A DNA stretch of 64,000 bases, taken from contig CAJINV010000007.1 in the NCBI GenBank assembly GCA_905178155.1, positions 3,800,265-3,864,264 on the forward strand. Direction: 5' to 3'. Source of the DNA: Amoebophrya sp. A120 (lineage: Eukaryota > Protista > Dinoflagellata). The number at the start of each line of letters is the position of its first letter. Position 1 is the stretch's first letter. The notes beneath the pieces are model-generated. The model was not told the DNA's origin. It was given only the letters and a program-made list of their open reading frames with translations, and did no database searches. Positions 15,169 to 38,000 of the stretch are shown one piece after another. Both the position numbers and the translations under genes were made by a program.

Positions 15169-16026
15169 ATGATGCTCCGTGGACTTCTGCGACGCGCCAG
15201 GCCGATGCGCATGACTCTCCCAACGGACTATGAAATGCAAAAATGTCTGGGTCTGGATCTGGAAGAATGCAACTTGTCATGCTAAATCTGAAGCATGCAA
15301 AAATCTGTGTCGCATGATTACCAAAAGTCGTCCAGTTTTGACCAAGCCGGGAGGGAGTTTCTCATGCAGGATAGGCATTAGAAAGGTCTCGCTGAGTCTG
15401 TCATGCTAGGTCCTGCATTCCAGACCTCATGGGTCATGGAAAAGCAGAATGACAAATCGCGCACTCTTCCAGACCCAGACACTTTTACATTTGATACGGA
15501 CATCCAGTTTACGAAAGACCGGGCGGCTAGGCGGGTATGATAGTGCTACAAGTTTTTCAAATTGTCATGTTGACCTAGACCACCTCGAGCTTGGCATTTT
15601 TATTGTTTTATGTTTATCGATTATGCTGTATCAGGATCAGCCTCGCATTCGCAAATTTACATACAAAATCAGATGACAAACATGATGGAGGAGGATCGCG
15701 TCAAGTTCTACAATTGGAACCTTGCCTGCATCGCCGTCACCGGTGTGCCCTTGGCATACTAGTATAATTCGCATAAAGTTTTCTATATTCTTTTTGTTTG
15801 AATGATAAACTTTTATTTTGCTTCCTGTTCTTTTCAAAGTGCGAAGATACCGCTATGCCTGTTTTTGAACGATTATGATTATGACATGCGCAACGCATAA
15901 AATGGATCACATCCTCTCAGCCTCACGGTGAACTACAATTCCTCTGACGATACGGACCGCATTTTGCGAGTCTTGGACCCGGACGCGCGATCGCAGATCG
16001 GGTACTATCCGGGCATCATGGGTTGA
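15169..16026 (+). CDS. Small single-pass membrane protein with Arg-rich presequence-like N-terminus, 95 aa; join(15169..15228,15502..15534,15673..15761,15921..16026)
   Basis: Spliced product MMLRGLLRRARPMRMTLPTD|IQFTKDRAARR|MTNMMEEDRVKFYNWNLACIAVTGVPLAYY|LTVNYNSSDDTDRILRVLDPDARSQIGYYPGIMG*. Two GT-AG introns plus one introner, all phases compatible. Confidence 0.75.
15229..15496. mobile_element. Introner/MITE-like intron, family A copy 2
   Basis: TIR TATGAAATGCAAAAATGTCTGGGTCTGGA / TCCAGACCCAGACACTTTTACATTTGATA. Perfect 5-bp TSD CGGAC (15224..15228, 15497..15501). Interior collinear with 8601..8863. Confidence 0.9.
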
Positions 16027-17260
16027 GCTTGGTGGTGAGGCAGATCGGGTTGGTCACCACTCTAGTACCACTCTAGGGAGTAGAACGACAATACTGAAAA
16101 AATTTTTTTATCCGCTGCCGCAGCTCGTACTGCCTGCTTCTCTACTTCTACTACTTTGTTCACTAGTTACAACCCGTGTCGTCCGCGGTGTTATTGCATG
16201 TTTAGTAGTACTAGGTGCACGAGGACGACGCTTCTGTGATGGACTTCGTAAAAACCGCAAGGTGAACCACATCGATTTGAGGCTCCTGAAGATGGGAAAG
16301 GCTTGTGTAGTAGTGCTGGTGGCCACCAGCATCGATCCGAAACAATTGAAAGTAGAGCCAGTTGTAGTGGAAAACACCTCCCTTGGTTGTCAACGAGATA
16401 TACGTGTTAGGGAGACAGTGGTGTTCGATTCCTTGATGATGTTGCCAACACGATTTTTACAGGAGTAAAATAAAGAAGAAGTGATGTAAAACCACATCGT
16501 CCATTGTTGAAAATTAGCATGCTGTCCTCGTGCGCGTGGGTGGCAATATCGCATGATTTCACAACCAAAAGGTGTGATGGAAAAGCTGTTCCTTATCCTT
16601 AATAGAAGTCGGCTTTGTAGTCGCCTCTAGCGGGAAATTGACAGTCGATGAGAGAAAAATCTTGGTCTTTATGCGAGAAGTGTGGAAGCTGAGGGAGCTT
16701 GCTTCGAGTCATTCACATTCTGTATAGTCAGATCGTTGGCGTGGAGGAGCGAAAAGCTACGCACTTGAGTAGCTTTCGCGGTTTCGTTCAGCGCTTTCGA
16801 ACGAAGTTTCTTCGTTGCATGTCTGAGATTTCGTTTTTGATGATTGGACAAAACTCTTCATCAGTTGCAGTGTGTGAAGACTGATAGAGTTACCAGTCCT
16901 TCTACTTCTTTACACAGCCACATCAACGAAGGAGTTGTCACATCAAACTAGTGCATGCGGCAATAAGATGACGTCACCAGCTCCGCAAGCTAGTGACGTT
17001 CCGCCCCGGCGCGCGGGCTACGAGATCCTCGGCGACCGCATTGCGCGGTTGAAGAACATGCAGCAGGTACTTTTGCCTGTTGAGACGTTGAATTGATGTT
17101 GTGCTGTTTATTTTCTGACTTGTCCTTGTCCATCAAGTTCAAGAATTTACGTCGGAGCAGACTCATCTGAGCAACGGAAAGTTGTTCCAATCAACATCCT
17201 GAGAAATTCCGAAAAAATGTAAATGATCTTCAGGTGAATGCCCTCGCGTCCCGCGCTAAC

Positions 17261-20200
17261 ATGCGGTCGCGGCAAGGTCAAGCTCAACCCGACCCCCAGC
17301 ACACGAGCTCCGTCCCGGACTTGAGCAGCGCGACCACCGAAGCGCCTAACACCTCTGCCTCGGAAAAATCGTCTTCTTCGTCCGTGAAGGCGAATTATTT
17401 GGGGAACTACGACGAAGCGCACGTGGTTGGTACTGTTTCTGCGCAGTATGATCAAATGCAAGACGAAAATCTGATGGCGTCGAAGAAGAATCTGTCATCC
17501 TACCTCCCCAGTACAGCGCCCCCCGCGGCAAATGTTCCGTCGTCTTCCCGGATCGGAGATGGTGACACGAACCGCAGCAACGACGATGACCAAAGCGACA
17601 CGGGCTTTCAGAGCAGGGCTTCCACGGCTCGCGCACGGGGGGAGCTCGTGGCTAGATTTATTCGGGAAACGCAACAGGAGAAGAATATTGACGTGGGCAA
17701 CAAGCAGGCGGCTGCAGCACCACCACCAGCTGCGAAAACAAACCAACCTCTGAATAATTACAGCGTCACCCCGCCGCCGAGCACTTACAACGCTTCGCAC
17801 CAACATGCCGTAACGACGACTCCAGCGGTGAACGTTGCTACCACCAGCGCCACGCGCCACTACAATCGACTAGCGGCCACCGCTGCGCCCGTCATGATGT
17901 CCACTTCCACCGTGTATGGCAGTAGGCAAAATCAGCAGCTTCCATCGCGAAACAACTCTGTGACCAGAACAAGACCTGGTGTCCTGGTCCCGGAGCGCCA
18001 GGTTGTTACAGCAGGTGGAAGCTCGGGAGCAGCCGCATCGCCAAACAAAGCTCCAGGTACCAAACAACTCGCGGGTGGAACATCTGCTGGTGCCTATTAT
18101 CATGGTTCAGCAGGAGGAGCTTCTGCGAAACAGACAAACCTTCGTGGCAGCTACACGAGAACCACCAGCAACCAAAACTTTTCATCGGCGTCGACGTCCC
18201 AACCCGCTGCTTCTAGGGCAGAATTTGGCTTTGCGAAAGCGAAATTGCAGCAAAAGCAGGCGATGTTGCAGAAGCAGTTGCTCCTTTCTGGCACCCCCTC
18301 TTCCCACGATAGCAACCATTGGAACGAACTCGAACCCGAGGTGGACAGCGGCGCGCGCACGCCATTCTCTGACTTCGAGGACAATTGTGTCGGCGGAGGT
18401 GGAACTATTGCGGGTCACGGTCAGGACGATGCTGGTACTACGCTGCCACTAGACGGACGACGTGAAGAAGGCGCTACTGCAATGACAAACTTCGCAAGTT
18501 CCACAGTCACTTGGTCGTCCAATTTTCTTGGAAACGCCACCGCTTGGGTCGACTCGTGGAAGCAACAAGTGGCGGATGTGTTTGAATCTACTTCATCAGC
18601 GGCACACAAGGGCACTAGTGGCGGTAGTGCAGGAGCAAAAACCAGTAGTCCTGCTGCGTTCTCGTCCAAGCGAGCAAAGCCTTCTGAAAGCCAGGCTCTG
18701 CTGCAAACTCCAGCCCAGCAGCGTCGAGGAGATTTTTACACCGAAGAGCCCCAGGGCACGGCTGGGGCAGCATCATCCGGCGGGCAACGCAGCAAGATGA
18801 AGCAGCACCAGAAGACTTCTGGAGCTAACAGTATGAACTACCAGTTCTTTTACGGCTCCGCGGCGGTGCCGGCTTCCTCGGAAAAGTCGCTGATTCTCTC
18901 GCCGCAACCGGTAGTAGAGGACCACGCCGCTTTTGGGTTGTCGAGCGCCAAGCGCCCGCGGCCGAAGCCGAGTTCTAGTACTACCAAGAGGAAAAATCTG
19001 CTTTCCGCAGCACCTACGTCCGACGACGAAGCAGACGACTTGCACATTTTTGAGCAGGCCCTGAAATTGTCGGAGAGCAAGACGAAAATGCAGATCCGGG
19101 CGGTGGGCTTCACGTTGTTCATTCTCATTTCCTACTTGGTTCTAGCCCACTCCGCACTGTACTATCCCTCATCTTCTAGCAGTACAGCAGACCACGGCAC
19201 GCAACCGGTGGTCGACGGGGCCACGTTTCCCTGTCCGCACATTGTCTTTGGGAGTTACCGCTTCGGCCCCGGGTGCGAGCTCTTCTGGAGCCGGGTTTTC
19301 AATGGTTTAGGGGGTGGACGGACTATTGCACCAACTAGTCCCTCTGCGAAAGAGAAGAAACAGCTTTTACGGCGAGAGGCAAACAGTAAAAGTTCGGATG
19401 GAGCTACGAAAAAAGCGCCTCAACAGGAGCCTTCCCTCTATCCTGAAGATTCGTTGTTTGTGAGAAAATCCCACAGCAATTTAGAGGACTTGAATGAAGA
19501 ATCAAGTTCCTCTTCGTCCTCTAGTGCATCGAAAGATGGCGGAATTGACCTGGATTCTTCGAAAGAAATGACCGAGGCCGCCACGACAACGACCCTGACC
19601 GCGACCACGACTTTCATTGCGAAGATCCTCGACAGCGTTCTCACGGGCGGCGCTTTGAGCAGCCTAACCAACAGCCTCACGGGAAGAAGTAGTAGTAGTG
19701 GTTTTCTTCCGAATGGCTTAACGACCACGGTCGAGCAGCAGCAGTTTAAGAAGCAGATTTTCCAGGGTTTGACGGATTTGGAATCGTCCCTGGCCTTCTA
19801 CTCGTCCGAGCAGCTGAGCGACGACGCTTTGAAGTTTTCCGGCGTGGTGGCCCACTTTGTGAAAGACCGGGCGCGAATGGGAAACGAAGTGAAGCAAATG
19901 CTGAAGAAGTTTCCCGAGTACACAGGGCTGGACAAACCATCCGAAATCAACCTCGTTTACTCGTCCGACGACGAAAAGCTCGCCGTGGTGGTTGACAGCC
20001 ACGGCAACGAGGTGGCCGGAAGTACAGCAACCTCGCCCGGAACACCAGCGGTGATACAAGAACTACCCCCGAGCGCGCCGGGGGCTATGAGCGGCGAACT
20101 CGGATCGGGACCGGTGATTGGATATTACGGTAGCAGTACCACACCGTCTTCCGCCATACCGGAAGGAACTCCGGCCGCAATACAAGATCCACTGTTATCG

Positions 20201-22388
20201 GAGCAGAAAGACCAGAAGCGGGTGTACCTAGCGATCGAGAGATTCGCGCCGGCCATTCACCATTGGCTTCGCCACCTGCAGAATAACATGATTCTGAAAG
20301 TGCAAGTCGTAGTGTCTCCGGGGGACCATGTTTGGCTGTTGCCGTCGAACCGGCGGAGGAACGCGAACAGTCTTGCCGGTGACATCTTCCAGGGGCCAGA
20401 GCAGTTCTCGTTGCTGACCCCGTTTTTCGGCACCGGAACGCTGAACGTTGCGGGCCAGTTGGAAGCCTTGACGGAGGGCAGTGTCGCCGGTGCCGATTTG
20501 TCTGTACCCTACCAGCTGCAAGGAAAGGGCGTGGCGTGGTACTTGGAGAAAAGACGCATGCGATTATTTTTGTGATCAAATTTGTGATGGTGCGAGGGAG
20601 GCGGCATGATCGAATTTGCATTTGCTCGTTCTTGAAAAAGGCCAGTGACAATCCTCGCCAAGGATGATCATGAGGCTCGTGCTTGGCAATAGTAAAAAAT
20701 TGCGATAGTGAGTCCATTTTTTAAAACGGACACAAATTCCAAACTCATCAGGCTTATCGTCGACCTCCTGTCTGACAACGTCGTCAAGTACCATGAGACC
20801 ACCAGTAATCGCGGGTTGCTCAAGGCCGCAAACGACGCTGTTGCGAGGATCCAAAAGGTGCGGCGAACCACGTTTCCCGAGAAGGTGGAGGCGGCCTTTG
20901 ATCTGTACTTCAATCTCTGGACGGGTAGAGCAGCGTCCAGAATACTGTCAAGAACTACGGAGGAAAACACCAGCACCATCAAGCAACAAGACCTTCACTC
21001 TTTGCCTGCTGCATTATTTCGTACCACACTCGAGTCTGAATTTTACGACGCGACCTCAAGTTCGGACCAGGATCTGCTCAGTAACTTGAAGCCCACGATT
21101 GACCCGCCCACACCAAAATGGATGTTTGATCAGCCTGCTGCAGTATCAACGTCTGGGTCCACCTCAACTGCAGCATCTTCGCACTCGCTTCTGCCCTTCG
21201 CCATGCAAAAGGTCTATGTGGTTTTCGAAGAGCCGATTGTGTCTAGTGTCGTGGCGAGGGTCATGAGGCCAGCCGCCGCGGGCTCTCCTGACGACGTAGT
21301 GTCAGTGGGCGGAACGGGTCGCGCAAGCACGATGAATCCCACTTGCGTCGTGGATCGCGTGCGGAGTAGCTTCTCGCCGTTGCGGCTAACCTTGCGGAGC
21401 CACCTGAGCCAAGTGTCGTCGCTAGAAGGAGCTTTGAGCAGAATTATTCGGGACCAGAGGTATCATTTAAGGTTTACTGTTCTGATATGTTATTTCATCT
21501 ACTTGCATCATGATCATGCGTTTTTGTGTGTGCAACGAAAAAACGAAACGTTGTTGACTACCCGTCTCGTTCCTTCTCCCTCTTAATCAGCCAAAACCTA
21601 TGAATCCAAAACACAGTTCTGACGACAGTATGGCAGCTTTGGTTTTGCACCCGGAGTATCTGACGCCGAAGGTGTGGAGAAAAATCACCGAGGCTTTGAA
21701 GCAGGTACTTGATTATACACGACCTATCGATTCTTGTTTCTATACGCACGAATGTTCTTTGTATGAGGCATCCCTATGAAGATTACGTTTACGTCTACGG
21801 CAACATGCATCATCTTCTATCGTGCTACTTTCAAAAAGAAAAAGCAAAAGACAAGCCCATTTCCAATACAACATACTCAAACAGACCCCGAACACCGCTA
21901 CGCCGACAGCAGCATCAGCAACTGCGTCAACAGCTGCTAAATCTGCGGACGACAAAGATGTCGTGTCCTCCGACTCTGCCAAACCAGACGACACGACAAC
22001 TTCCGCCGATACGAAAACAGCAGCGGCAACCGAAACCTCCGCAACCGCACCAGTTTTCACCGATCTGGTCGCGTTCGAGACACTAAAGGCCACGTCGCAC
22101 GCGAGCGAGAAAGCGGAGATTAGTGCGTTTGTCGAGATCCGGGCCGCGGACAGTACACCTGCAGTAGCTACTTCGGCAGCGGCGGAAAAAATCGTGGAGA
22201 GAAGCATCACCGATTTCCCGATCTTCCTGAACGCAAAAACCGCCGGGGAGGTGCTGAATAAGATTACACTCCTGAACGAATTCGACGGAAATTTTGAGGC
22301 GTTCTTGCTACACGCGCTGGGACAAAGCCGGCTGACGAAGTACAAGTTACCGGGATTGCCGGCGAAGGAGATGCCCGGGTGTGTGTAG
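17261..22388 (+). CDS. Large hypothetical single-TM protein; join(17261..20538,20752..21459,21617..21704,21885..22388), start uncertain
   Basis: 1113-codon ORF plus three phase-compatible GT-AG introns. TM segment AVGFTLFILISYLVLAHSALYY. No domain recognised. Confidence 0.65.
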
Positions 22389-22664
22389 AGGGTAGCACTA
22401 GCAGTGAAGAGATGAAGTGTTTCATAGGAAGCGGATGCCCAACCTCAATGAATTTTGTAGTGAACAACAAAGCGGTCTACGACTTCCGCTACCGCGTTTT
22501 TATACTGTCAGCCAGTTGTCGCAAGGCCCCAGTTTTATGTATCAAATGAAAAGATGGCTTGCTTCTGCTTGTAAGATGTACAAAAAGACGAAGAAATACG
22601 CAAGAAAATTTTACCTGTAAAGACCCAGTATTAATAATTGATGACTTGGCATCTTCACTGCTAC

Positions 22665-22977
22665 TGTTGGAACACACGAAGCCGCTAAAGGGTTCAAAAT
22701 GCTAAAGCTTGACACAGCTAGCAAAATCCTAAGAACTCACACGGCAGGGGCTGCGTATGCCTCTAACTGCCAAACCTGGGAAAGCATAGGAACAGGGTCC
22801 AGGGTCTCGATCATCATCATCGTCATCATCATCATGCTAGCGCTAAGCCTAGGGCTGAAGGATCTCGATCACACTGCTAGCGCTAAGGGTCAAGATCGTA
22901 AGCATTTGGATCAGGGTCATGGTGCTAAGCTTAGGCATTTGGATCCGGAGCGGTGCGTAGAGTGCATCTCGTCAACG
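22665..22977 (-). repeat. 3' LTR
   Basis: Identical by eye to 27881..28193 except the terminal base (G vs A). Confidence 0.95.
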
Positions 22978-22985
22978 CCCCTCCT
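22978..22985 (-). other. Polypurine tract
   Basis: + strand CCCCTCCT reads AGGAGGGG immediately before the 3' LTR. Confidence 0.75.
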
Positions 22986-23049
22986 GCAATCGTCGCCAAA
23001 AGCCATCGCTGACCCATGTCCATTCAATGCATGTAAGCATAAGTCAGTC

Positions 23050-26000
23050 TGAAAAGAGTGAACTACTTACAATCACGTCGAAGCTCAGGCGAGCTCGACT
23101 AAAGTCAATACTCCGAAAGGATGTAAACCGGTCCGCAACGCAATTCAGGTCTGTGCCCACTCCCACGTCTACCCTCATCCTGAGACGGTGGGTCTCGCAA
23201 TGCTGTAAGCGCTGGAGATGATCCTCACTGGATAGAAAGCTTCTGACGCTGTTCTATACAGAGCGACAATCGACAACGTCACGGCATGGCGAGTAGCGGC
23301 GCAAGAATTGCGTAGCGACTCTCTGCTTGTGTCAAAATCAAAACTCTACTAATGGCAGGCACGCTCGCAGAAAAGCTACCTGTCCCCTCCTCGAATGAGA
23401 AGCGTCCAGCGCGCTCTAGCGTGCGCGATCCTGTCACGAAATGTATACTCATTGCGAAAACTCTTCTCTAACTTCAGAAATCAGCGTAGCCAGCCTCAGA
23501 GCTCACTAGACGGGTCCCCTCCTCAGATGAAAGTCCCCAGGCTGAGTCCGAAAACTGCAGATGCCGTATCTGGGTCCTTACAAACTGAGAGGTGGCTGCC
23601 CGCAGCTAACTCAAGGGTCTGAAGATAAATCTACAGAGAATCTGGAGAAAGTCTACTCTATTTCACTACGAGGGAAGTTCGTAAGCTTCTGCTACTACCT
23701 AGGGCCCAGACTATGAAACTCGACACATCATAAGACTTGCTGCTCCGTCTTTGACGTTGACTAAGCACCAAGGGGAGGCTTGGCGCGTCTATCTGTCTAG
23801 CCACTTCCACTCTGGGCTTCCAAAAGTCAGCTTCAGGCGTGGCCTCGTGCGTAGCTAGGGAATGTCGTCTGTGTATCCTGTGCATCATCCACACACTAGG
23901 AATCTCACTCCTCCTGCGATGACTTGACGCAAGGGAAGAAATTTCACTAGCTATCAACTACGTGGAAAAGTGTAAAGCAAAATGGATCACACCTATCCGG
24001 CGCCACGCCACACGCTCAAGCATCTCGCTTCATCTGTCAAACCTGTCGCAGGTCCATCTCTGTCCACGCTTCGCGCGTATTCGTTAGTCTATGACTCACT
24101 ATTCACTTTCTGCTTTCGGGAACTGTTGCTATCTAGAGGATAGGCTTGCAACTGAGATAGTCGCTATCTTTCATTCCTGGAAACTCCGCTTCAGGTAGGT
24201 CCCAGCGGACTGCGATGCAGAATGAGTCGCCGAAGCAACGCAACACAGACCACCAAAAAGGGCTACCGTAATCATTGTTCAGATAGAATCGACTTGATCT
24301 ATCAGAATCAGCGGGGTCACGCACTTAGCTCACCGAGTCACCCCTGACTTTCGTCATTGACTCTAGGTCTCACGCAGGCACAGGGCCACACGAGAAGAAC
24401 ATACCTAGGTCGATTGGACACCTTGACCATGCAAAGTAGGGTCGAGACACAGGGTCCTTGAGCTGCTCAAAAGTCGCTCTTGGAGTATGAGACTCACCCA
24501 TCAGCTCAGTGCATCTGCTGGGTCTGAGTAAGAGGTCACTAGTCATGGTAGATCTAGCCTCAGAGTGAGTTTGTATCTAAGTGCACCAGGATCGGGTCTC
24601 CATGCTTCTCAGCTTAGGGCTGGAGGCATGTTGCATCAGGTAGCCTCGACGCTTTTCCAGCGGTGAAGCGCTCGAACCTCCGCAAGCAAGCCTCCCAAGG
24701 TAGGTCGACTGCCTGTGATTCGATGCAGTACCCACTCGCTCACGAGTCGCCATGTAGATGCTGAGCATGTTGTAGTGCGGAGGCGAACTCCCTACCACAT
24801 ACACACACTCACCCGACTTCGTCCGCGTCAAGTCTTTCATAGAAGAACGACACCGCGTCAAGTGCGTCTTCTTATATTTACAGCATCGGAGTTCTGGACA
24901 CGAGTGGAGTCTCGCTTATCAGCGATCTTCCGCCACGAACCTAGAACCACAAGACTACAATCTGGACAGCTCGAACCGTGCAAAGGCACTTTCTTAGACA
25001 ACTCACGCGGGACCGCGTAAGCTTGTCTTGTATAGAGCTAGACCTCGCGGACTAATATGCTCTATGTCTCCAGACTGTGTTCTTGTCACAAGCTGCCTCG
25101 GGGTCTTCCAACCTCGTGCGTCAGCTTGCGCCTAACTGAGTTGGCAATCCAGGGCTCCTTCACTGAGAGCATACCTCTCGAGCCTTTCTCTCACTTACTG
25201 GATTCTTCAACGCCTTCACCTCATCGAAGGGTCTAAGCTTGACTACTATGGACTTCTCTCATGCGTTTCGTCCAACTTCGATCCTCCCAGACGAGTCACG
25301 CGCACGACATTGCTCTACCTGGGTGCCAATCAGGAAAGTAGTCATAGCGATCATCTATTGAATCGGACTTCACAGCATGAGCAAAACTGAATCTTCCTCC
25401 TCCTGTCCTGACGACGTGCAAAGCAATGTCTCTCCCCTCCTCAGATTGAAAACCATCGGAGCATCGGAGAACGGACCAGAGGGGTTCAGTTCTGTACTTC
25501 TCTCCGTTTAGTTTCTATAAGACTAAGCCTTCCGCCTTCTTCTCAACGTGCTCCACCCCATGAACCTCCAGGCGATGAGCCGACCATCCATCTATGGTCT
25601 AGTCGTCCAAGCGCGGGCTGAACCGGCTGTGACGCGCCGTCTCGAAGGGCAAGATGATCTCTCTAGATAGGCTTCGCTTCACATACAAAACAGAGCTTCC
25701 CCATCGTGCGTGCCGAATCAGGAAAACCCAGCTGGAGAATAAGCCTACAGACGCAGAGGACTTTCAGCAGTATCCAAGCAACCAGGCTAACCGATAAAGC
25801 TCGCACAGGGATAGAAGGGGGCCACCAACTGCCGAGGGCAGTGGTAGTCTCTGCAGCTTCTCACGCGTGTCTCGCGCTTTCTCACTTCCTCTAGGCATCT
25901 CACCTTCTCAACATGGATTCTGTACTTTTGCGCTAACCTCCATGGACAGGACCTGAATGGGCTTCCTGTGTCCGATGGGTTTGCGGCGATTGCTCATCAC

Positions 26001-26900
26001 TTGACGAGATCACCACTCAGGACTTCTCCTCCTGTCTGCTAACCAGACCGAAGAGATTCACGAACCGAATTCGATGACAACTGGGTCTCTCGGCTCATGT
26101 CCTGGCGAGTACACACACAAGGATAGACATTCTCAAACAGATTTCAAGTTTCTAGAACTGGCCCGACTATCTACTTCCACTCTATCTACTCTGACCGATA
26201 CTCGGCGCTGCTGCGCTGGCTCTCAGGCCACGCAGAACACCTCTAAACGGGCTCGAAGCTCGTCGAACTCGGTCACGTCATCCATCAGCTGCTTGCTTCG
26301 CGTCGTCCTTCGTCGTCCTAGAGTGTTTCAATCATTTCAAAAGGTCACTCACTCACAGTCTTCAGCTCATAGCGGTTGCAATAGCAGCTGCGTCAGAAAC
26401 GCTGCATCGCTATGCTTCAAGTGCTTCTGAGCATCATTCACTAAACTAATGCTGTCTATTGACAATCGACCTCGAGACCAAGGCAGCTGGGACTGCTAGC
26501 TTAGCTGTTAGGCTAGGCCTGCTGTCTCAGAGCCTCCCAGGTGGGCCTCATGTCTTTGGTCGTTGTCTGTCATACATACAATCTATCTTCACTTCTGTCA
26601 ATTCATTCTACTTGGATCCTATTCAAATTCTGATCTACTTCATACATAGAGTCCCTGTCTTCCTTCCTTTACCAGGTCACGAGACGCAGTCCAGATGCTT
26701 TAGCGTGTTTGTTTTGCCAGGTCACTTGCGTAACCAGCTCAACAAATTCAGCACATCTGTCATCTTCCGCATCTCGAACACCTTCAAACGCAACAACACA
26801 AATCGGCCACGCTTTTCTTCGCTTGCCGTTGTTCTGCGCGTTTCCGCTTTTCGTTTTTTTGTACTTTTTCAAACACGTTGGCGACATGTTTCATTTTTCT
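23050..26900 (-). pseudogene. Highly degenerate Copia-type pol
   Basis: No long ORF. Remnants YLGRLACGG (~24676-24702, KARLV.G-like), WSRCPIDLGMF (~24397-24429), and RNase H-like FSDSAWG..SEAGY (~23490-23556), VVDCRSV (~23257-23277), VADRFTS (~23119-23139). No intact YVDD seen. Confidence 0.6.
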
Positions 26901-26970
26901 TATTCGGTTGCAAAACCCACTCAGTTGCTGAACTGATGGGATGTGAGAAAAGGAATCTTCATCCACTCAC

Positions 26971-27804
26971 TTAAGGAAGAACTTTGATCATCCGCGCATA
27001 CTTCAAATCAAACAGGAATCCGTGAGGATGGTCCTCGTTCTTCCCTTCCTTCGGTTCCTCGGTCTTGCTCTCGCTCGTCTTCTTCTTGTTCCCCTCTTCG
27101 TTGTTCGCGTTTTCCTCGTCCTCCTTGCTTTCTTCGTCTCCGCTCTCGCGCTCGTCGTCCCCACTGCTTCCGCTGCAGCTCGTGAAACGGGGATCATCGG
27201 GGTGAGCGATCACCGACTCCAACGAGGGGGAGGGCGGCGGGGTCCGGAGTTCCTCGCTTTTCGGTTGGAACTGGCGCCAGGGCCGGAACTCCCGGGGCGG
27301 CGGGCGGTTTTCCTTGCGGCCGGTGCGAGGCGGGCCCCCATGGTATCCCAGGAAACCCATCCGGTAGGTTTCTCCGGGGCGGTTACCGTACGGGTGCCCG
27401 TGGGCATCCCATTCGTCCGCGTCCATGCTGCTCGTTTCGGCCTCCTCGTTCTCCGTTGTTCCGCTCTCCGCCGCGCTCTTCTCCGCCTCCGCCTTAATCC
27501 GGTGGATTTCTTTGCCAACGTTCTCGATGCGCTTCGCCGTCTTCTTGCCGTCGCAGTTCCGGACGTTCGCGCGGAGTTTGCTGCGCTGCTCCTCCAAGGC
27601 GTCCAAGTAGGCGGCGCGGGTTTCTCCGCGGTGCTGTCTGCTGCGGTCCCGAGACTCGCGGCGCAGATGCGTGCCCTTCGGGCGCACCAAGTAGCGGACA
27701 CGCAGGCGGTCGGGGTCTTCTTCGAGCTGTTTCGCGCCGTGGCGCTCAGTGGCTCGCTCCGCTCGCAGGCGTTCCGCACGGGTGCCGGCGCTAAGGCTGT
27801 CCAT
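26971..27804 (-). CDS. Intact ORF1 of the LTR element (277 aa, charged/coiled-coil, no zinc knuckle)
   Basis: GC-rich stop-free ORF from ATG 27804 in the gag position, followed by decayed sequence. Confidence 0.65.
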   Translation of the reverse strand: MDSLSAGTRAERLRAERATERHGAKQLEEDPDRLRVRYLVRPKGTHLRRESRDRSRQHRGETRAAYLDALEEQRSKLRANVRNCDGKKTAKRIENVGKEIHRIKAEAEKSAAESGTTENEEAETSSMDADEWDAHGHPYGNRPGETYRMGFLGYHGGPPRTGRKENRPPPREFRPWRQFQPKSEELRTPPPSPSLESVIAHPDDPRFTSCSGSSGDDERESGDEESKEDEENANNEEGNKKKTSESKTEEPKEGKNEDHPHGFLFDLKYARMIKVLP

Positions 27805-27862
27805 GGTTTTCAAAGCTAAGGCCGAAGGGCTAAACCTTAAAAATGCGAGGAATTTGCTAAAG

Positions 27863-27880
27863 TTGGCGCAAGTTTGGCAG
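27863..27880 (-). promoter_or_regulatory. Atypical primer-binding site CTGCCAAACTTGCGCCAA
   Basis: Abuts the 5' LTR and lacks the TGG expected for tRNA-CCA priming. Complementary to LTR 27982..27994. Confidence 0.6.
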
Positions 27881-28193
27881 TGTTGGAACACACGAAGCCG
27901 CTAAAGGGTTCAAAATGCTAAAGCTTGACACAGCTAGCAAAATCCTAAGAACTCACACGGCAGGGGCTGCGTATGCCTCTAACTGCCAAACCTGGGAAAG
28001 CATAGGAACAGGGTCCAGGGTCTCGATCATCATCATCGTCATCATCATCATGCTAGCGCTAAGCCTAGGGCTGAAGGATCTCGATCACACTGCTAGCGCT
28101 AAGGGTCAAGATCGTAAGCATTTGGATCAGGGTCATGGTGCTAAGCTTAGGCATTTGGATCCGGAGCGGTGCGTAGAGTGCATCTCGTCAACA
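27881..28193 (-). repeat. 5' LTR
   Basis: TG...CA termini with 5-bp inverted repeat, followed by TSD GCTAC. Confidence 0.95.
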
Positions 28194-29021
28194 GCTACAG
28201 ATGCCCTCCAAAATCAATGCGTGTGTATTACGTTCTTCACCACCACAACCTGCACCACTTACGGAAAAAATAACTTACACTATGTATTCCACGCAGAACA
28301 AAAATGTATCACAGAAAAGAAAAACGGCATGCTGCATGAGCTTCCACTTGAGAAGCGCTCGCATCCCTCGTTTGTTTCTTGTATCATTCTACAGTAACAA
28401 TACCAGTTTCAATTCTAGATGATTGTAGTGGAGCAGGAGCTAGTGTATCGGTTATCGTTATTCTCTACCAAGTAAGTACAATACTTCACCGCTCTGGAAA
28501 TCTGGACGTAATCGCGAAAACTACCTTGTAAAAGAAAGAAAGACCCCAATTGTACTGCGCTTGCGCTAAGCACTTCGTCTCAGATCAAGATTGATGCGTC
28601 TCCTGAGATACGTCTGAAGGAGGTACCCTGAAGCGCTATGTCGCTTTCGTCTGATGCTAGTTTTCTTTCTGCTTGTTCGATAGCATTGTACCAGGTTGTG
28701 CTGCAACCTCAAAAATGAAATGCGACCTGCACGACTTGCTTCTTAAGCAAATCATGTGTGTAGCTCCTGAGTTCCGCTACAAACAAACATGTCTTGTCTA
28801 CATGCACCGAGGGTGGAGCGATGTGCATATCTTATCTTCTATGTTAGTTCTCCAAGTAGATGGAGGTGATGGAACAGGCAGCTTGAGCTTGTCTGTCACA
28901 CAGGTGGGAGTGATGTTGTCGCGGCCTCTTTCGCGTTTGAAATCAGGAAGTTTAGAACGAGCGCAATTGATGTTTGGGTTTGCGTTCTTATTACCACCCT
29001 CCAAAACCGCCCGAGACAAAA

Positions 29022-30972
29022 ATGCAGCAACCCTATCATGTAACCGCTTCCGCACCTGACGACAAGATCGATCCTTGGCTGGTGAAGCAGGTTACTGCTG
29101 CGACGAAAAAGCCTTTTGCTTTCTTCGAGAATAACGACGCGCGAAAATTTCGAGAGGACGAGCAGCCCGTCTACACGCTGCTCGACAAGCCCTTCCCGAG
29201 AGACGGGGCAAGCGGAACAAGTACAGTTGGAGCTGCAGAGTTGAAGGGCGGTGGTCCTCGCGAAAAAATTGCCAAAAAGAACAGTACAAGTGCTACCTCG
29301 TCTGTTGTATCTTCCACTGCAGCTGCAGGAACACGAACAACAGCAAGTGTAATCCCCGAGGCGAAATTTGCGTCGTCGAAGATGGACAGCACGTCTTCAA
29401 AGAGCGGCACTGCTGCAGTGAGAGAACCCGTCACCTCGAATAAAGCGAAGTTTCCTCCGAGGGTTGCGCAGACACCTGCCGCAGGTGCTGGTGCGGGTAC
29501 GGCCCCAGGAATGTCAACAGCTTCATCGGGCAGAAGAAAATCGTCGGGGGCCGCTGTTTCGGCGACCATACAACCAGCTGCAGCTGCGCCCTCTGGGTCC
29601 TCTTCCTCGAGATCAAGGACCAGACCACCGGGCGTGCCATCCCTCACAAGCGGCATCAAGAACATCAATGGGTGTAGTGCTTCTGCGAGTGTGAGTGAAA
29701 AACCGAAAGAAATAACGAACGTGGCCAGCTGCGGCAGCAAAAATTCTCTCTCGGCCTCGTCTGGTAGTGCGAAGATGAATCAGCGTGGTTCACGCACGGC
29801 ATCCAGTAAAGGATCCTCAGCGCCACATAAGCAGCCAGATCCCGCTACGACAACCGCGGTTCCGCCTTCCTCGGGCAGGAGTGCAACAGCTGGGAGAAGC
29901 TCTAGCAGTGCTGCGACGTCGCACCGAACTAAAGACGCAACAAGAGGCGAGAGCACAAGTGCGGCTTCCGTTGGAAGTGCCTCTGCCACCAGAAGCCGGG
30001 CAAGCAAAGGGCCACCGAGCTCCTCGTCTCAGCCAGGGAGTTGTGCAAAAAAACCCGATGACAGGCAACAAAGCCGTAATCGGACGGCGAAACTACAAGA
30101 GAAGGAGAATAGTAAAGACGCCAGCGCGGCCAAGAATCCTAACATCGAAAAAAGACCACTTTCTCCGCCGCTGCCAGCACCAGCCGACCCCGCCGAGCCC
30201 GACGACGGCTCCGACCTGGATGAGGCGATTACCAAACTTCGGCTGCAGAACTTTCAAAAGAAGTACATGCTGTTGCAGCAGAAGCGGGCAGAGGAGTTGA
30301 ACGAGACCATCCAGTTAAACGAAAACGTCCGCAGGGCTCAGCAGGAAGCCAGTTTGTTGAAGCAGGAGCGGGTACGGAAAGACAGCGAGATTTGTCAGCT
30401 GCGGCTGCGCCAGGAGATGGTCGAAGCGAAGGCGAGCAAACACAAGGCCGAATTGCTGCGGTTAGCCGAGGCGTACGAACGACTGCAGGCGGAAAAGAAG
30501 AAAGTTCAGGTAAAGTGGAGTGACTGCGTGAAGTTTTTTGTCATGAGCGGCCTTATGAGGTCGCATGCCGCGGCATGGCCTCTTCTTTCTTGAACTGAAT
30601 CTGCGTCTACCTTCAATATTCAATGAAAAAAGCATCTACCGTACTTCTTGCCCCCGAACTTAAGAACATACCCCTCCACCTCCACAGGACTCTCTCCACG
30701 AGCTGGAGCAGCGATCGCAGGAGCGCGACGCGCTGTTGCTTTTCTACCAGGTGCGGGAGCGCGAGTTTACCAGCACCGACGCGGAGAACCTAGAGCTGAA
30801 ACAACAGAACCAAAGACTGAAGGAGCAAATTGTGTTTCTCTCCGGTCTGGTGTTGCAGTCGTCGGACAAAGAAAACAAGCAGGCACAGGAGCTGTATTTC
30901 CGAGGTGACGATTTCAAGTGGCCCGGGGGAATGCAGGAAGAGGAAGTGTCAGGAGAGCAGAAGGATGACTGA
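29022..30972 (+). CDS. Hypothetical protein, Ser-rich disordered N-terminus and C-terminal coiled coil; join(29022..30509,30688..30972)
   Basis: Heptad-like E/K/Q/L-rich C-terminus continues across GT-AG intron 30510..30687 (KKVQ|DSLHELEQ). Confidence 0.75.
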
Positions 30973-32084
30973 AGTTGATGCAGACATGACGTTCTTTTAG
31001 TTTTACTTCTCGGATCCTCGTGGTGGTCGGTGAGCTACTTTCTCTCCCACCGCGGCTACGCAGCAGCTGTCTTGTTTGTGCTTGGGCCTGATCTTTATTT
31101 AGCAACCTCGCAGTCGCATCGAGATATTCGCACTCTAGCCTTAGCCCCTTGACCAGCTTAAGGCTACTACCGATCCAACATAATCATCACCATCTTCTAC
31201 TTCTACCTCGTTTTCGCATTGCTCACTTTGTTGGATGTCTTGGTTGGAGATCGAAAGAGCTGGGGTGAGGCCTTACAACTTTTCGACGACCAGAGGATAA
31301 ATTCCACAAGCTCTTCGTGATGAGTGATGTGCTCGCAGCTGCCCACTCCCTGTTGTACTCTTTCGTCATGAACTTCTCGAGTCTAAAACCAAAACTACAC
31401 TATCGTGGTTCTTTTTCACAACATTGATTGGTTCTTCAAGACTCAACCGTGTTTTTTTGTATGATGCTATCGTGAAGGTACTTTCATCTATGATGTTGAG
31501 CACTGCCTAGAGGCAGTTGCCCTCCCAACTCTTAGTACGAACTATGTAGCTTGTACTAGCTGCTGCGAATTGAGTGGTCGCAGATCCACAAGAAACCGCG
31601 TTTTGCCGATTCAAAATGGTCGATTCTTCAGTCTTCGTTCTGTTCGAGCTCAACGTGCGTTGCTATACTGTTCTTACTCCGTTGCCACGTTTGCAGCGGC
31701 TACACAGTGACGCGAGCGAACCTGCGAGAGGGAGATGAATAAAGCCACCCATCAGGTCGACATCGGCATCCCCGAGGTGTAGGTGGTTAAGTTTGATGAG
31801 CAAGGAGGCTTTGAGAGTTGCTGAGGAGCTGGTCGTGTGGCCGTGTGGGAGATGATGCCGGACTTCAGCTGAGAAGTGTGCACTTTGTGTTGACCACCCA
31901 CCCGTAATGCCATCAACTTCAAATTAGCCGTGGTCTTCTTTGGCGGTTGCGGTTCAGGTTTTTCTTGAAGCAGGTGAATAAATCTTTTTAGCACACTGCA
32001 CAAACGAACGGATTCTCATTGTGATATGGCCAGCACGACCGCACGTGCTCAAACTCAACAAGCGCCGCACCGACCCACGAGAAG

Positions 32085-35000
32085 ATGAGCAGGACCGGCA
32101 TGATGAGACCGCAGCAGAACCACAACCCCGGTGCCGTCGAGCAGCCGACCACTAGCGCACTCGACGTGGTCGCGGTCACCCCCCGCGTGGTGATTTTCCG
32201 CAGCCCCTGGCTGCTCGCAACGCACCGGGAGTGCCACCGAAACAACGTGGACCAACTGAGTCTTTTTTTCGAAGCCTTTGCACAGAAGCACGCCGAAGAG
32301 GATGTGCGGAAAGGAGTTGTAGGGAGAACATCGAGCTCTTGTTGCGGGTCCTCGTCATCCTCGTCCTCTTCAAGCAGTGCTGGTTCGATTTCGAGAACTC
32401 GTACTCGAGATGCTGACCATAATTCGCCCGCCGACTCCGTTGCTCCTGTAAAAGGATCCTACCAAATTTTCGATTTGAACGGAAACGAAAATTTGCGAGA
32501 TTTCTTGCAGTCCAAATTCAACTCACGACTAGTCAGCTTCACCTCGCCGGTTGGAGCTGCGACTAGCTCGTCTTATGCGACGGGACAGCCCTCTGGCACA
32601 ACAAGCAGTGCGGCTGGAGGTGCAGGAGAAGCGGGCAGTCGCAACTCCGCCACACAGCTGCATGACCGAATAGACCTGCAGCAAGAGCAGCTGTCTATAG
32701 CAAGCAGAGCCACTGGCTCCAGCACCACAAGATCTACAGCGAACGGTCCAGGACCGCCGGCGTTGGAGCTTGTGCTCGAGTTCGCGCTGGCCCTGAAGTG
32801 GTGGCTGTCGGTGGACAGGAAAAACGTCGCGTTTGTGCACTTCAAAGACAGCTCCTACTACAACCTCCTCTACCTGCTGGCCATCTCGTTTGCCGCTTCA
32901 ACAGCAACAGGCAGAAGTGAGGGTGGTTCGTTGATGTTACAACCGGAAGGACTGGCTGAGACAAGCAAAGAGAAAGATAGCGATAGTGGATCGGTGGACG
33001 GAAAGTTGAAAAATGCTGTCGAGTTGTGTGGGAGCAGGTCCTCCTCGTCTTCTGATGCTGTATCAGCCTCCACGAGCACGGTCATCTCCGCCCGGGACAA
33101 CTCGTGCCCGCCACCGCCGTTTCGAAGCCCAGAGGTGCTGCAGGGAATCGGTTTGGTGTCCACACCCAACTTCACCCGATCGAACTCTGGGAATAAGCTT
33201 GCGGAATCTACTTCTCGCGCCTCAGCGAACTACGACGGGCGTGGTGTGGCTGGTGACGTACAGGCGAGAAGGGCGTCGAGAATGGCGACTGCGGAGGAAA
33301 GTGCGCATACGCTCTTTCAAGGCGAGGTCGGAAGTGCTTGCGATTCTACTGGTAACAACTTCTGCAAAAAGTTGGTAGTGCCATTAGCCGGACCGTTCGC
33401 ATCATCAAGAGGGGCACAAGCGTCGAACAGTCAGCATCGCGGAGAAGTAGAGAGTGGGAACCTGTGCGCCAGCGCAACATCAAGTAGGGCGGCAGATGAA
33501 GGTGTTGTGCACTTGATGCTGGTTGACATAGCCGCACCTGCTGAAAGGGCATGTTCTTTGGCTGCACCTTTGCGCAAGTACAATCACAGCAGTGGTGCTG
33601 GCAGTGATCGTGCCAAAGTCGCTTTCGGACAAGAACCGCAGTTCCGCTCATGGAAAGAGATTTTGGACACCTTGCTGACGACAGCACCAGGGAAGCAGCA
33701 GGGAACAACTAACGACGAGAAAATTCCAACTTCGAACACATCTGGCATCTCCGCAGTCGCTCCCTTACGAAATTCGTCTTCCGCGAACGTGATCTCTCCG
33801 TCGAAAACAGGACCAACGGGATCGAGCGTTTCCTCGGTCGTAAAGATGCTTCTCTTTTCCTCATCGAGCAGCTCAACGAGCGGTGGTACTACATCAGGCC
33901 CTGGATCTTCTTCTTCATCTAGCAGCAGCTCCATGATGATGCCCGCGTCCTGTGTGCGTTACCTGACCTACGTCCAGGAACTGCTTCGCACCTGGCCTAG
34001 GGAGATGGGTCGGATTTGCGATTTACGACCCGTGCGGGATGAAACTGCTGATGCAGCAAGAAAAGCAGCTGCTGACCAAGAACTTGCACTAGATGCAAGA
34101 AAGCAACCAAGTCTAATCGCTTCGTCCAGCTCGGAAGAAAATCTCCGCGTTGCCGCGGTCGAAGACCCCGGGGGTTCTGATTTGTCCACCTGCGAGCCGT
34201 CTTCGGGCATGGTTTCTTCCGGTGGGTCAACATTTTCCGACACTACTGCTAGCAGGAAGATGAAAGCGAGTGAGGCTTCCAATGGTGTCCGTAATGGCTC
34301 GATTGACGGTGTTGATGTCGGCGGAAAACCTGCTTCACTCGCAGACGCAGAAACGCAAAAGCCGAAGATTCGAACGCGGAAGTACCGGCTCCGGCGCATC
34401 AAGGTCAGCCATCCACCTGCGCCACCGCTGCCCCCACACCAGCACAACTTCGCACCACCATCCGCCGGACCGGTCTACCACGATACCGCAAACAGTCGCC
34501 CTCCACTGGCACTGGGAACTCACCACAGGATGAAGTTAACTTTCAAAATTTTCCATTTCAACCACGAGTTCCCGACTGAGACCGCTTCCGACCTGATTGC
34601 GACTGAACAGCATCACCTGCAACAAACCGCGACGTCCCCGGAGTTGAGCACATCGAGCACTAGCGAGGAGAGTAACACTAACAGCAAGCCGCACCCCTCG
34701 AACAGCAGCAACGCGCCATCGATCGCCTCCACGCACAGCCGGTGGAGCGAGCTCGAGCGGCAGCCGATGTGGCAGCCGAGTGCGCGGCAGAAAGGGCCGA
34801 TACGCGCGACCTGTGCGAGCTTGAGTCGGTCCCCGAACTTGGTAAGGGCGGTGGGGGGCGGCGGGGTGAGTGGTAATGGTCTAGCAACAGCAGAACAGCA
34901 AGACGACACGCTGTCCGCATCGGAGTTGCGCCGGTTGGCGGGCGCGGGCGGGAGCTGCACGCCGAAAACATCAGGGAGCTGCTACGACAGTGCTTCTGCG

Positions 35001-38000
35001 CTTGCCAGCCCAGCACTGTACAACCCATATAGTACAACGAGTACGACATCCCGCACGCACAGTCTCCCCGGGCCGCATAGCATGGCAGGGTCAACGCTTG
35101 CCCCTCCGCCACCTTGTGCTTCCGCGGCAGCAAGCCAAAGGTACCGGAGCACCTCCCGGCCGCCGCAGCTGCCACCGCAAATTGGATCATCGCAGATGAT
35201 GTTGAGTCAGCAAGACGGGCTGTCTGCCTCGGAACTGCGCAGATTACACAGTGAGGCAGCGAAGACCCCGAAGAGCTACGCTGGCGGTGGAGGTGGAGGG
35301 GGCTTTCTTACCAGCGCCAGTCTCGGGCTGAACCTGCAATTGGGCGGAGCTGCTACGGTCAGAACGGCATCCGGGTCGTCAACTTCTCGAACACCAGTGA
35401 AGCAAACGGGGACCGGCGCTAGTGGAACCTCTAGTACTACCAGCACGCTGTCGTTTCTGCAGTCCGCGGTTGCGCACTGTATCCAGAAGACGCCCATCAT
35501 CAATTGCGGGCAAAATAGCAAGGCAAACCAATACGGTGGCTCCGCAAATCTCCGCTCTCCCTCTGCACACTCCGCGATGCTGGAGGAGCAGCACATTTCC
35601 TACACGCAGGCCCGGGACCGCTTCGAACAGATGGCGCAACACAACAAATCGCCGTTCCTGTCGAAAAACCAGGTGTCCATTGTGGAGTACCAAAACCAAT
35701 TCAATTGGAAAACCGGGGGGAAATTCAAAGAAGTGATGACCTTGTTTGACGACGAAAATGATGCACGCGTTGATCATCAACACGGACATTTGTTGAGCTA
35801 CGGCAGCTCCTCCTGCAGCACAACCAGGAACAACGATAGCAGTACAACTGTTTATTGCAAAGCCGTGAGTTACGAGGACTACACCGAGTTTCACTTTGCG
35901 GAGGAAGTTTTATTGGAAGGCAACGTATGCATCACCTGTTACCAACACGTCGACCACACAAGTAGCAACCTGCTTCCGCTCTGGCACTACTTCTTCCACA
36001 CAAACTTCCTTCCGGATCTGGTTGCGAGTTGCGCTCTTGCGGACACCTCAGGGAGGAGCAGCAACGACGATGCTAGTGTCACAAACATGCTCAATCTGGC
36101 GCTCAGGAGAGAAGATGTCGACCACGTGCTTGCGGACAAAAACCACGCCAACAATCTTCACGCTGTCTGCAGCTTCCAAGCGTTGGACCCGGAAGATGAG
36201 GTCGATCCAAAGTGGCTAGCGTCAGCCTCAACGCAACAACATCACTTGCAACTCAGAGATGTGGTGTCATCAAGTGAACAGCAGCAGTCTGCAATAGCCG
36301 GCCGAAGCAACAGCAAGACGTTCACCTCGATTGAAAACGGGGTGCTCCAGATGAAAACGACAGTCGGCGTGATCCAGAATGGCATTGCGAGGGTGGAAGT
36401 CGTTCCTGTGTCCGCGTCCTCGACTTCTTCTACGTCAAACGGAATAAAGAGAAGCACTAGCAGATCTTCGTCCGCGAAAAACAGCCCTGCGACGGAAACG
36501 GCATTGCCCTCGCCGGTCTCCTCGTCGCCCGCACGGGTGCACAAGGGTTCGTCGATGAATACGAGGAGGGAAAACACTATCCATCATCTCCTCTTCCCGA
36601 CAATACCAAATCTGGAAAAAACCCATCTTCTTTTCCGTAAACGACACCACTGTGCACCGAGCATGAAGGAACTCCGGCTGCTGCTTGCGGACAGGGAGTT
36701 GTTTGCCGGTTCGAAGGTGCAACAAGTGCAAAATTTGGAGGCGAAGGAAAAAGCGGAAATTTTGAAGCTGGCGTTGCAGATGTGCAGCAACGATCTGGAA
36801 AAGGCACTGGAGGTTTTGGAAACCGTTTTTTCTCTGAACACAAACCCCTTTGTCAAGAAGCTGGCCGCAAAACGGGAAGTCGCAGCGCAACGTGCAGCGG
36901 CCAGGAAGCTGTTGCGAGAGAAGTTGTCTTCTAGTGGTGGGGCAAAAGTAGAAGCAGAGACCACAACGTCGCCAGGGAGGAGATGCGGGGCTATGCATAG
37001 TCCACACGACAGAACTCATTCTGGTGAAATAACAGGGAGCAGTACAGCTAGAATCGAGGCCGGAAAAACCACCAGTTTGCATAGGACGCGATCCGCGGCG
37101 CCTGTGCCGTCCAGGCTGTCAGAGTCTGAATCAACTAGTCTGGGTGCTCGGCCCTCGCGTTTAGCGGTGACGCCAAATTTGGAAAAGCGAGACGCCGCAG
37201 GTGTGCTGCCAGGGTGTGAAATACGCGAGCAGGAACGGCAGGCCGACAAGAATGACCAGTCCGCCTCCGTTTCGACGAGCAGCACGGTGGAACAAGCGAA
37301 AGCCAAGTTCTTACCCGGCTCTCGCATCCTCGGCGACCGGCCCCCAAGACCACCGCCAGTGGCATCGAAAAGTGTTCTTGGAGCAGCAAGCACCGTCACG
37401 CAGGCGGTCGAGCGGGAGCTGTCTCCTCCGGAACGAGCGACGTTGAGCGGCCCTGCGTCCGCCGTAGTTGCTGTTACGGGAGGTGTTGCTCGTGATCATG
37501 CTGGGCGGGACGACCTCCCCTTTTCAGAAATCACCGCAACTTCACAAACACAAGTGATTGTCGGAACTTCACCTTCCTCGTCCTCGAGAGTCGTGCCGCC
37601 AGAACTAGTGCCACCGGAGGAGGTACGACACGCTGATTGTTAAGATGATGCACAGGCATCAATATCAAAATGCTGTTGGCTATCGCCTGCACCTTTTGCT
37701 TTTGCATGCACGGTCCCATTGTGCATTGTGATTGTGATCCGCTTTCTTGAGTCCTCCGACATTCTCCTTTTATTCCTTGGACTCGTAAACAAAAAAAAAC
37801 CTCAAAACGTCAAGGTCTTATCCTCTTCATCACGCCGCACCCTGGAGCAGCAGCCGCGACCCCAGGGTGCCCTTGGAGGAAGGAGTGCGACAGAGGCTGA
37901 TCTTCTGACGCCGGCACTTTCCTCAAGGCAAGGGTCACCGGTCCACGTCAAGGAGCCTCCAGATAAAGGCGCTTCCGATCCTGTTGTTTCCGGTGCGGGT

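What the first reader, a model, noticed from the sequence alone, without database searches (positions are those of the whole stretch)
27863..28020. PBS also complements the dinoflagellate spliced leader: possible SL-assisted priming
Seen: the PBS complement reads TTGGCGCAAG-TTTGGCAG, and the LTR self-primer sits right behind a pyrimidine tract+AG (TGTTCCTATGCTTTCCCAG|GTTTGGCAG). Known: DinoSL ends TTTTGGCTCAAG, a 9/10 match to 27863..27872. Inference: trans-splicing at this AG would create SL-GUUUGGCAG, pairing about 18 nt with the PBS (one mismatch, one bulged G). The host trans-splicing machinery would then build the reverse-transcription primer. I know of no described example. The SL-specific part is only about 5 extra bases, so chance is possible.
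Basis: partly seen in the sequence, partly recalled or inferred. Interest (0 to 1): 0.88.

Follow-up and report, generated by a model that had tools for sequence, protein, structure and literature searches.

The report
Self-priming retroelement with spliced-leader-like primer site
A young 5.5-kb jumping element in a parasitic dinoflagellate has a primer site that pairs with its own end repeat, so it likely starts copying itself with its own RNA; that the host's spliced-leader tag lengthens this primer is possible but untested, and RNA assemblies suggest the host cuts the whole element out of its message like an intron.

Summary
The sequence observation holds. [quoted passage not shown] It pairs with the LTR 9-mer at 27991-27983, which follows an AG. 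But the unspliced LTR already gives 12 pairs; the leader would add 5 pairs (about 6 kcal/mol), at the cost of one mismatch and one bulge. Chance is 0.05-0.9% by match count, 2-15% by energy. No test of leader addition succeeded: raw RNA reads did not map, contigs gave no positive control, and no relatives were found. Best reading: Tf1-like self-priming (0.55); leader-extended primer 0.33. The scan noted the leader idea before on other DNA (unchecked, not counted as support); my paper searches listed no described case. Unplanned result: the element lies antisense in a host 3' UTR, its LTR ends are predicted to form a long stem (0 of 500 shuffles), and RNA-type contigs join the flanks at two non-canonical junctions absent from the DNA-type run, so it is probably removed like an Amoebophrya introner.

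The parts
27881..28193 (-). 5' LTR, 313 bp, TG...CA, 5-bp terminal inverted repeat; first and last ~55 bases partly complementary
   Evidence: 312 of 313 bases identical to the 3' LTR; end-to-end duplex -45.0 kcal/mol, 0 of 500 shuffles
22665..22977 (-). 3' LTR (first base C instead of T)
27863..27880 (-). Primer-binding site, abutting the LTR, no TGG; bases 1-12 pair with the LTR, bases 9-18 resemble the complement of the leader 3' end (9 of 10)
27983..27994 (-). Predicted self-primer: 9-base core 27991-27983 plus CAG 27994-27992 (also the candidate trans-splice acceptor)
27992..28008 (-). Pyrimidine-rich stretch + AG, candidate acceptor (use not shown)
26971..27804 (-). ORF1, 277 aa, intact, strong codon periodicity, no homologue; first ATG downstream of the primer
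22990..26970 (-). About 4 kb interior with stops in all six frames, almost no codon periodicity, no recognisable pol
22978..22986 (-). Polypurine tract abutting the 3' LTR
28194..28198 (.). Target-site duplication (5 bp), right copy
22660..22664 (.). Target-site duplication (5 bp), left copy
22389..28579 (+). 3' UTR of the host gene that ends at 22388, interrupted by the element; RNA-type contigs join about 22660-22665 to 28188-28190

Best explanation
The 18 bases at 27863-27880 directly follow the 5' LTR of a young, pol-less LTR element and pair over 12 bases with a stretch of that LTR, so the element likely primes reverse transcription with the 5' end of its own RNA, as Tf1 does, probably without needing the spliced leader. 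Shown: LTRs, TSD, PPT, PBS position, complementarity. Predicted: a 13-bp duplex followed by a second stem that involves the U5 end. Inferred: RNA starts at or near 27994; RNase H of a helper element supplied in trans cuts after 27983 and the released 9-12-mer primes minus-strand synthesis. The leader likeness of the last PBS bases is then partly forced (the LTR has CAG where the leader has CAAG) and partly chance.
For: PBS abuts the LTR and has no TGG. 12 PBS bases pair with 27994-27983 with probability 0.85-1.0 in the ensemble; the region folds better than shuffles (z -2.54, 5 of 200). Tf1 uses an 11-base self-primer (PMC7175516, passage), so 12 is enough. 12 ATGs lie between 28183 and 28003 and none between there and ORF1 at 27804, which fits a working 5' end near the primer. 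By energy, 13-15% of AG-ending 12-mers and 2-5 of 187 LTR-internal 12-mers do as well as the leader. A PBS re-copied from a leader-bearing primer each cycle should be an exact complement (inference from tRNA-primed elements, recalled); this one has a missing base and a mismatch.
Against: By match count the extra leader likeness is unlikely by chance (0.9% given the 12-base duplex, 0.05% given the 9-base core). The primer core begins exactly after a CAG that has the most pyrimidine-rich upstream sequence of 26 AG sites; all six canonical host acceptors printed end in CAG. PBS base 10 forms a G:U with the LTR but a Watson-Crick pair with the leader. At least 18.5-37.8% of Amoebophrya transcripts carry the leader (PMC7789003), so trans-splicing of the element RNA would not be unusual. 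No pol was found, so reverse transcription itself rests on structure alone. The transcription start was not mapped.
Confidence: 0.55

Rival explanations
1. Leader-extended self-priming. The element RNA is trans-spliced at the AG at 27993-27992; the new 5' end, leader plus 9 element bases, pairs with 17 of 18 PBS bases and is cut off to serve as primer. The host spliceosome would then define and stabilise the primer.
For: 17 pairs, -24.1 against -18.1 kcal/mol; in the folded RNA the five leader-specific pairs form with probability 0.69-1.0; match-count chance 0.05-0.9%; best pyrimidine tract + CAG exactly at the 5' edge of the core; leader reported in Amoebophrya.
Against: One bulge and one mismatch; energy-based chance 2-15%; host cis acceptors are not pyrimidine-defined; a single site chosen after the fact. 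In C. elegans Cer1 the 8-kb gag-pol mRNA avoids the SL1 site (PMC3315495, passage), showing that an acceptor in an LTR element need not act on the full-length RNA.
Confidence: 0.33
2. The primer's 5' extension is built by cis-splicing or non-canonical joining from an upstream LTR segment (the repeated TAGCGCTAG-type motifs) to the same AG.
For: 4 of 187 LTR-internal 12-mers pair as well as the leader when a 26-base PBS side is allowed, two of them followed by GC; the host has many non-canonical introns.
Against: This rate (about 2%) is no higher than for random 12-mers (about 5%); GT-donor joins reach only -20.7; RNA-type contigs cross the LTR without a joint.
Confidence: 0.04
3. The PBS is served by a host tRNA fragment or another small RNA, or is a decayed site, and the LTR complementarity has a regulatory role or none.
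For: Half-tRNA priming exists in several lineages (PMC6317226, passages); the host tRNA set could not be checked.
Against: No TGG next to the LTR; exact 9-base and extended 12-base complement lies in the LTR about 110 bases upstream, the Tf1 geometry.
Confidence: 0.08

Closest known systems
Tf1/Tf2 (S. pombe), Tj1 (S. japonicus), Tf1/sushi, Tcn1 and TAR self-primed LTR retrotransposons
   Same: PBS abuts the LTR, is not tRNA-like and is complementary to about 11-12 bases inside the LTR (PMC7175516, PMC4600332, PMC6317226; passages).
   Different: No pol or chromodomain is recognisable, so lineage is unknown; host is a trans-splicing alveolate; the primer core follows a candidate acceptor and the PBS runs on with a leader-like complement.
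LARDs (large non-autonomous LTR derivatives)
   Same: Over 4 kb, LTRs, PBS, PPT and TSD kept, no pol (definition in PMC4558846, passage).
   Different: Keeps one intact orphan ORF; only two LTR copies are suggested by DNA contig depth, so no family or helper was seen.
Amoebophrya introner elements and LTR-derived introners
   Same: Terminal pairing plus a short direct repeat, non-canonical and variable splice sites (PMC7789003, section 11 and passages); introners attributed to LTR retrotransposons are reported in Amoebophrya, and full-length and solo Copia LTR introns in Panicum (PMC12130899, passages).
   Different: 5.5 kb (the first study kept only introns of 40-1000 bp), apparently single copy, antisense in a 3' UTR, imperfect ~55-bp stem made by the two ends of the LTR itself, a few LTR-end bases left in the mRNA.
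C. elegans Cer1
   Same: An LTR element whose RNA can be trans-spliced to a leader (PMC3315495, passages).
   Different: Cer1 has a tRNA-Pro PBS and its full-length mRNA is not trans-spliced at that site; the leader has no role in priming.

Membership tests
LTR retroelement (non-autonomous, LARD-like) | Two direct LTRs with TG...CA ends, TSD, PBS and PPT | tested here: met
   the 3' LTR starts with C instead of T
LTR retroelement (non-autonomous, LARD-like) | Over 4 kb with no gag-pol coding capacity | tested here: met
   5529 bp; no Pfam match of note in six frames read with X at stops, none in PDB sequences for three frames; one orphan ORF
LTR retroelement (non-autonomous, LARD-like) | Multi-copy family with an autonomous helper | tested here: inconclusive
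   LTR contig depth 83 against 41-48 for flanks in X5 suggests only these two LTRs; no genome held
Tf1/sushi self-primed elements | PBS abuts the LTR and complements about 11 bases of the LTR, not a tRNA 3' end | tested here: met
   12 pairs, no TGG; tRNA halves not checked
Tf1/sushi self-primed elements | [quoted passage not shown] | not testable with these tools
   contigs cannot show starts; ATG layout fits
Tf1/sushi self-primed elements | Ty3/gypsy chromovirus RT-RH-IN | tested here: not met
   no pol detected; works like Tf1 but is not filed as a member
Tf1/sushi self-primed elements | RNase H cleavage releases the primer | not testable with these tools
   needs biochemistry
Leader-trans-spliced transcript | Leader joined at the AG at 27993-27992 | tested here: inconclusive
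   no usable reads, no positive control
Leader-trans-spliced transcript | Host has a DinoSL-type leader | tested here: inconclusive
   host is Amoebophrya-like; leader reported for the genus but not seen in my data; the figure with its letters was not readable
Amoebophrya introner elements | Removed from host mRNA at non-canonical sites | tested here: inconclusive
   flank-to-flank contigs in X1, same branch point in X2 and X4, none in X5; the best contig has 33 and 30 letters on the two sides, one short of the tool's bridging rule
Amoebophrya introner elements | Terminal inverted repeat and 3-5-base direct repeat | tested here: met
   imperfect stem, z -4.6, 0 of 500 shuffles, 9 of 1500 random window pairs; 5-bp TSD; the perfect inverted repeat is only 5-6 bp, below the 8-20 of the definition
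Amoebophrya introner elements | Repeated family | tested here: not met
   depth suggests a single element

The most novel reading that the evidence does not exclude
An LTR retroelement whose reverse-transcription primer is built by the host's trans-splicing machinery (spliced leader plus 9 element bases, read by an 18-base PBS), and whose LTR ends also fold into an introner-like stem that lets the host splice the whole 5.5-kb insertion out of its mRNA: one element using both of the host's unusual splicing systems.
Probability: 0.27. Interest if true: 0.82.

Novelty: new variant of a known kind. Interest (0 to 1): 0.6.

Why it matters
LTR elements are known to prime with a tRNA, a tRNA half or their own 5' end. 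A leader-built primer would be a further route, tie retrotransposition to mRNA maturation, and predict anti-leader PBSs in trans-splicing lineages, which is a cheap genome-wide test. Even without it, a self-priming element in a syndinian extends the mechanism to alveolates (I found no report of this, but did not search for it specifically). The apparent removal of the whole element from a host 3' UTR gives a concrete, PCR-testable substrate for the open question of how Amoebophrya cuts out non-canonical introns: it suggests end-to-end pairing works over 5.5 kb and for a retroelement.

Tried and rejected
No genome held, so other LTR families and host tRNAs could not be surveyed. Run search: no RNA holder listed on record. 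Raw RNA runs X8-X10: 0 reads laid on 22990-29400, no test. X1 contigs: 3 loose ends, none at 27991; no contig covers the PBS or 22990-26841; contigs drop short tips and show no strand, so this is no evidence against leader addition. One search showed 24 of 525 loose-end rows, crowded by introner copies, none leader-like, also not at host genes: no positive control. Metagenome scan for primer + LTR end + PBS: 103 loci, 108 matches, none with 2 or fewer mismatches to the anti-leader and none related to the element (one weak 29-bp BLAST hit). Viral contigs: 0. ORF1: no homologue (0 of 1401 candidates; 0 in 1.84 billion; no Pfam match under E 0.02); the Atlas gave no answer. Stop-codon recoding of the interior: rejected, no frame is open or periodic, and host genes read in the standard code. 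A 'PYLGPYKL' stretch on the plus strand looked integrase-like (recalled motif) but matched no family. Rfam: 0 matches in 22600-28700. Whole-LTR folding is not better than shuffles (z -1.24); only the end-to-end pairing is. Relic leaders in the window: no exact 12-mer, one with 1 mismatch at 5757, not followed up. The primary Tf1 papers PMC109269 and PMC231564 were not held.

Full report
THE ELEMENT. The finding lies at the 5' end of a minus-strand LTR element. The LTRs are 27881-28193 and 22665-22977, identical at 312 of 313 bases, with a 5-bp target-site duplication and a purine tract next to the 3' LTR. ORF1 (27804-26971, 277 aa) is intact and strongly periodic (chi-square 67.8) but has no homologue. 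The remaining 4 kb has stops in all frames, periodicity at chance level in 7 of 8 blocks, and no match of note in Pfam (6 frames) or PDB sequences (3 frames). It is therefore LARD-like and would need a helper. In the DNA-type run X5 the LTR contig has depth 83 against 41-48 for flanks, which suggests no further copies (depth is only a hint).

THE HOST. The one non-self homologue of a window DnaJ protein is from Amoebophrya sp. AT5.2. Two inverted-repeat introns at 8600-8867 and 15223-15495 are removed at non-canonical sites in X1, X2 or X4 and belong to a very high-depth repeat family in X5; their repeats start TAT and run into A's, as described for Amoebophrya introners (PMC7789003, section 11). 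The host is thus Amoebophrya-like. That paper reports a 13-base DinoSL motif on at least 18.5-37.8% of transcripts (passages); the supplementary figures with the letters were not readable, so a strain-specific leader variant cannot be excluded. X1, X2 and X4 lack introns that X5 keeps, so they are RNA-derived.

THE OBSERVATION. Confirmed in every detail. The PBS abuts the LTR, has no TGG, and its first 9 bases complement 27991-27983. The LTR's own next three bases (CAG) extend this to 12 pairs with one G:U; with the LTR's last base the predicted stem is 13 bp and is followed by a second stem with the U5 end (z -2.54, 5 of 200 shuffles). Replacing the upstream sequence by the leader gives 17 pairs with a bulge and a mismatch and gains 5-6 kcal/mol. 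How surprising this is depends on the null: 94 or 1772 of 200000 by match count; 340 of 20000 shuffled leaders, 836-1005 of 20000 random tails, about 5% of random and 13-15% of AG-ending 12-mers by energy. The AG is the most pyrimidine-flanked of 26 in the 5' region, but six host cis acceptors have only 4-11 pyrimidines in 15. All 12 upstream ATGs lie 5' of the primer and none between it and ORF1, so a working 5' end near the primer is likely under either model.

MECHANISM. Self-priming from this LTR segment is the shared core of the two leading models (together 0.88). Tf1 uses its first 11 bases, released by RNase H (PMC7175516, passage); Tj1 and plant Tcn1 and TAR elements are predicted to do likewise (PMC4600332, PMC6317226; passages). 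The LTR alone offers 12, so I put plain self-priming first (0.55). The leader model (0.33) explains the CAG at the exact edge of the core, the G:U and the five extra pairs, but needs two imperfections in a site that should be re-copied from the primer (inference). My odds for it were 10-15%; I raised them after the acceptor and match-count results. Earlier scan notes of the same idea in other genomes (e1-7334932, e1-7804146) prompted that recount; they are unchecked and are not counted as support. Notes on splice-built primers in BEL/Pao elements led me to test cis joins, which do no better than random. The direct RNA and comparative tests gave no verdict (see Tried and rejected).

LITERATURE. 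Four full-text searches (listings only, 20 of 51, 19 of 20, 0 and 4 papers shown) gave no title or abstract opening that describes a leader-built primer. I read passages of the two closest, PMC3315495 (Cer1: tRNA-Pro PBS, full-length mRNA not trans-spliced) and PMC4558846. The library lacks most subscription journals.

UNPLANNED RESULT: REMOVAL FROM HOST mRNA. The element sits antisense in the 3' UTR of a host gene ending at 22388. In X1, a 63-base contig (depth 20) consists of 22632-22664 followed by 28188-28217; a second record joins 22632-22660 to 28189 (loose-end row; depth about 28 by subtraction); a third keeps one LTR between the two flanks (depth 10); downstream the UTR continues to 28579. 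These three sum to about 58, close to the upstream host contig (54), and reproduce the bin depth (30.3 against 30.4). In X2 and X4 (one sample) the host contig also stops at 22661 and a one-LTR contig starts at 22632, so the graph branches at the same place; in X5 the contig runs unbranched from 15470 to 22694. The skipped parts are 5523 and 5528 bases with non-canonical ends in both possible registers. The first and last 60 bases of the LTR pair far better than shuffles on both strands (0 of 500, z -4.6; 0 of 300; 9 of 1500 random window pairs), approaching the weaker of the two introners (z -5.2), and the flanks add a 7-bp stem (5 of 500). I read this as introner-like splicing guided by end pairing (about 0.75). 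Caveats: the two sides were seen in separate calls; the best contig has 33 and 30 letters on either side, one short of the tool's bridging rule; the RNA runs are one study and X5 another, so DNA-level loss in the RNA cultures is not excluded; the one-LTR form may be a solo LTR, a template switch or a collapsed repeat; one of the three non-canonical introns checked (7843-8129) has no significant end pairing (172 of 500), so pairing is not universal. LTR-derived introners are already reported in Amoebophrya (PMC12130899, passages; 19 of 58 supplementary rows for one strain seen, none finally classed as LTR), so this is a variant, not a new class.

VERDICT. A real, self-complementary PBS in a non-autonomous LTR element of a trans-splicing parasite. 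Leader-assisted priming remains open at about one in three and is easy to test. The element is probably also spliced out of its host transcript. Novelty: new variant of a known kind; interest 0.6.

Noticed in passing
window 22632-22665 and 28188-28218: RNA-type contigs join the two flanks of the element at two non-canonical junctions, leaving 4-6 LTR-end bases; a third form keeps one LTR. Not seen in the DNA-type run.
   Followed up: yes
window 27881-27940 with 28134-28193: The two ends of the LTR form an imperfect stem of about 55 bp (0 of 500 shuffles), like an introner; a solo LTR of this element would itself look like an introner.
   Followed up: partly
window 22648-22654 and 28199-28205: The host flanks carry a perfect 7-bp inverted repeat, so the element inserted into the loop of a small predicted hairpin.
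   Followed up: partly
window 23000-26900 and the LTR, minus strand: Strand-biased composition: AA low (0.84; LTR 0.56), AG and GA high (1.37-1.62), TGA and TAG high, TAA low. Could reflect A-to-G hypermutation; unexplained.
   Followed up: no
window 8600-8867, 15223-15495, 62856-63090: Inverted-repeat introner-type introns; the first two are spliced at non-canonical sites and are related to each other and to a very high-copy family.
   Followed up: partly
window 7843-8129: Non-canonical intron (AC..AC) with weak intron-end pairing but some exon-flank pairing.
   Followed up: no
window 10767-10926: RNA-type contigs differ from the DNA at many positions in a short stretch (table 3); probably a mis-laid splice junction or repeat.
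   Followed up: no
window 5711-5768: Two leader-like 12-mers on the minus strand (2 and 1 mismatches), 46 bases apart in an intergenic region; possible relic leaders or chance.
   Followed up: no
window 32025-43037: Two in-frame ORFs of 1872 and 1797 aa separated by one stop; the second has an FH2 formin match. Probably one gene with an intron.
   Followed up: no
window 22977: The 3' LTR starts with C where the 5' LTR has T, the only difference between the LTRs; it breaks the TG end next to the PPT.
   Followed up: no
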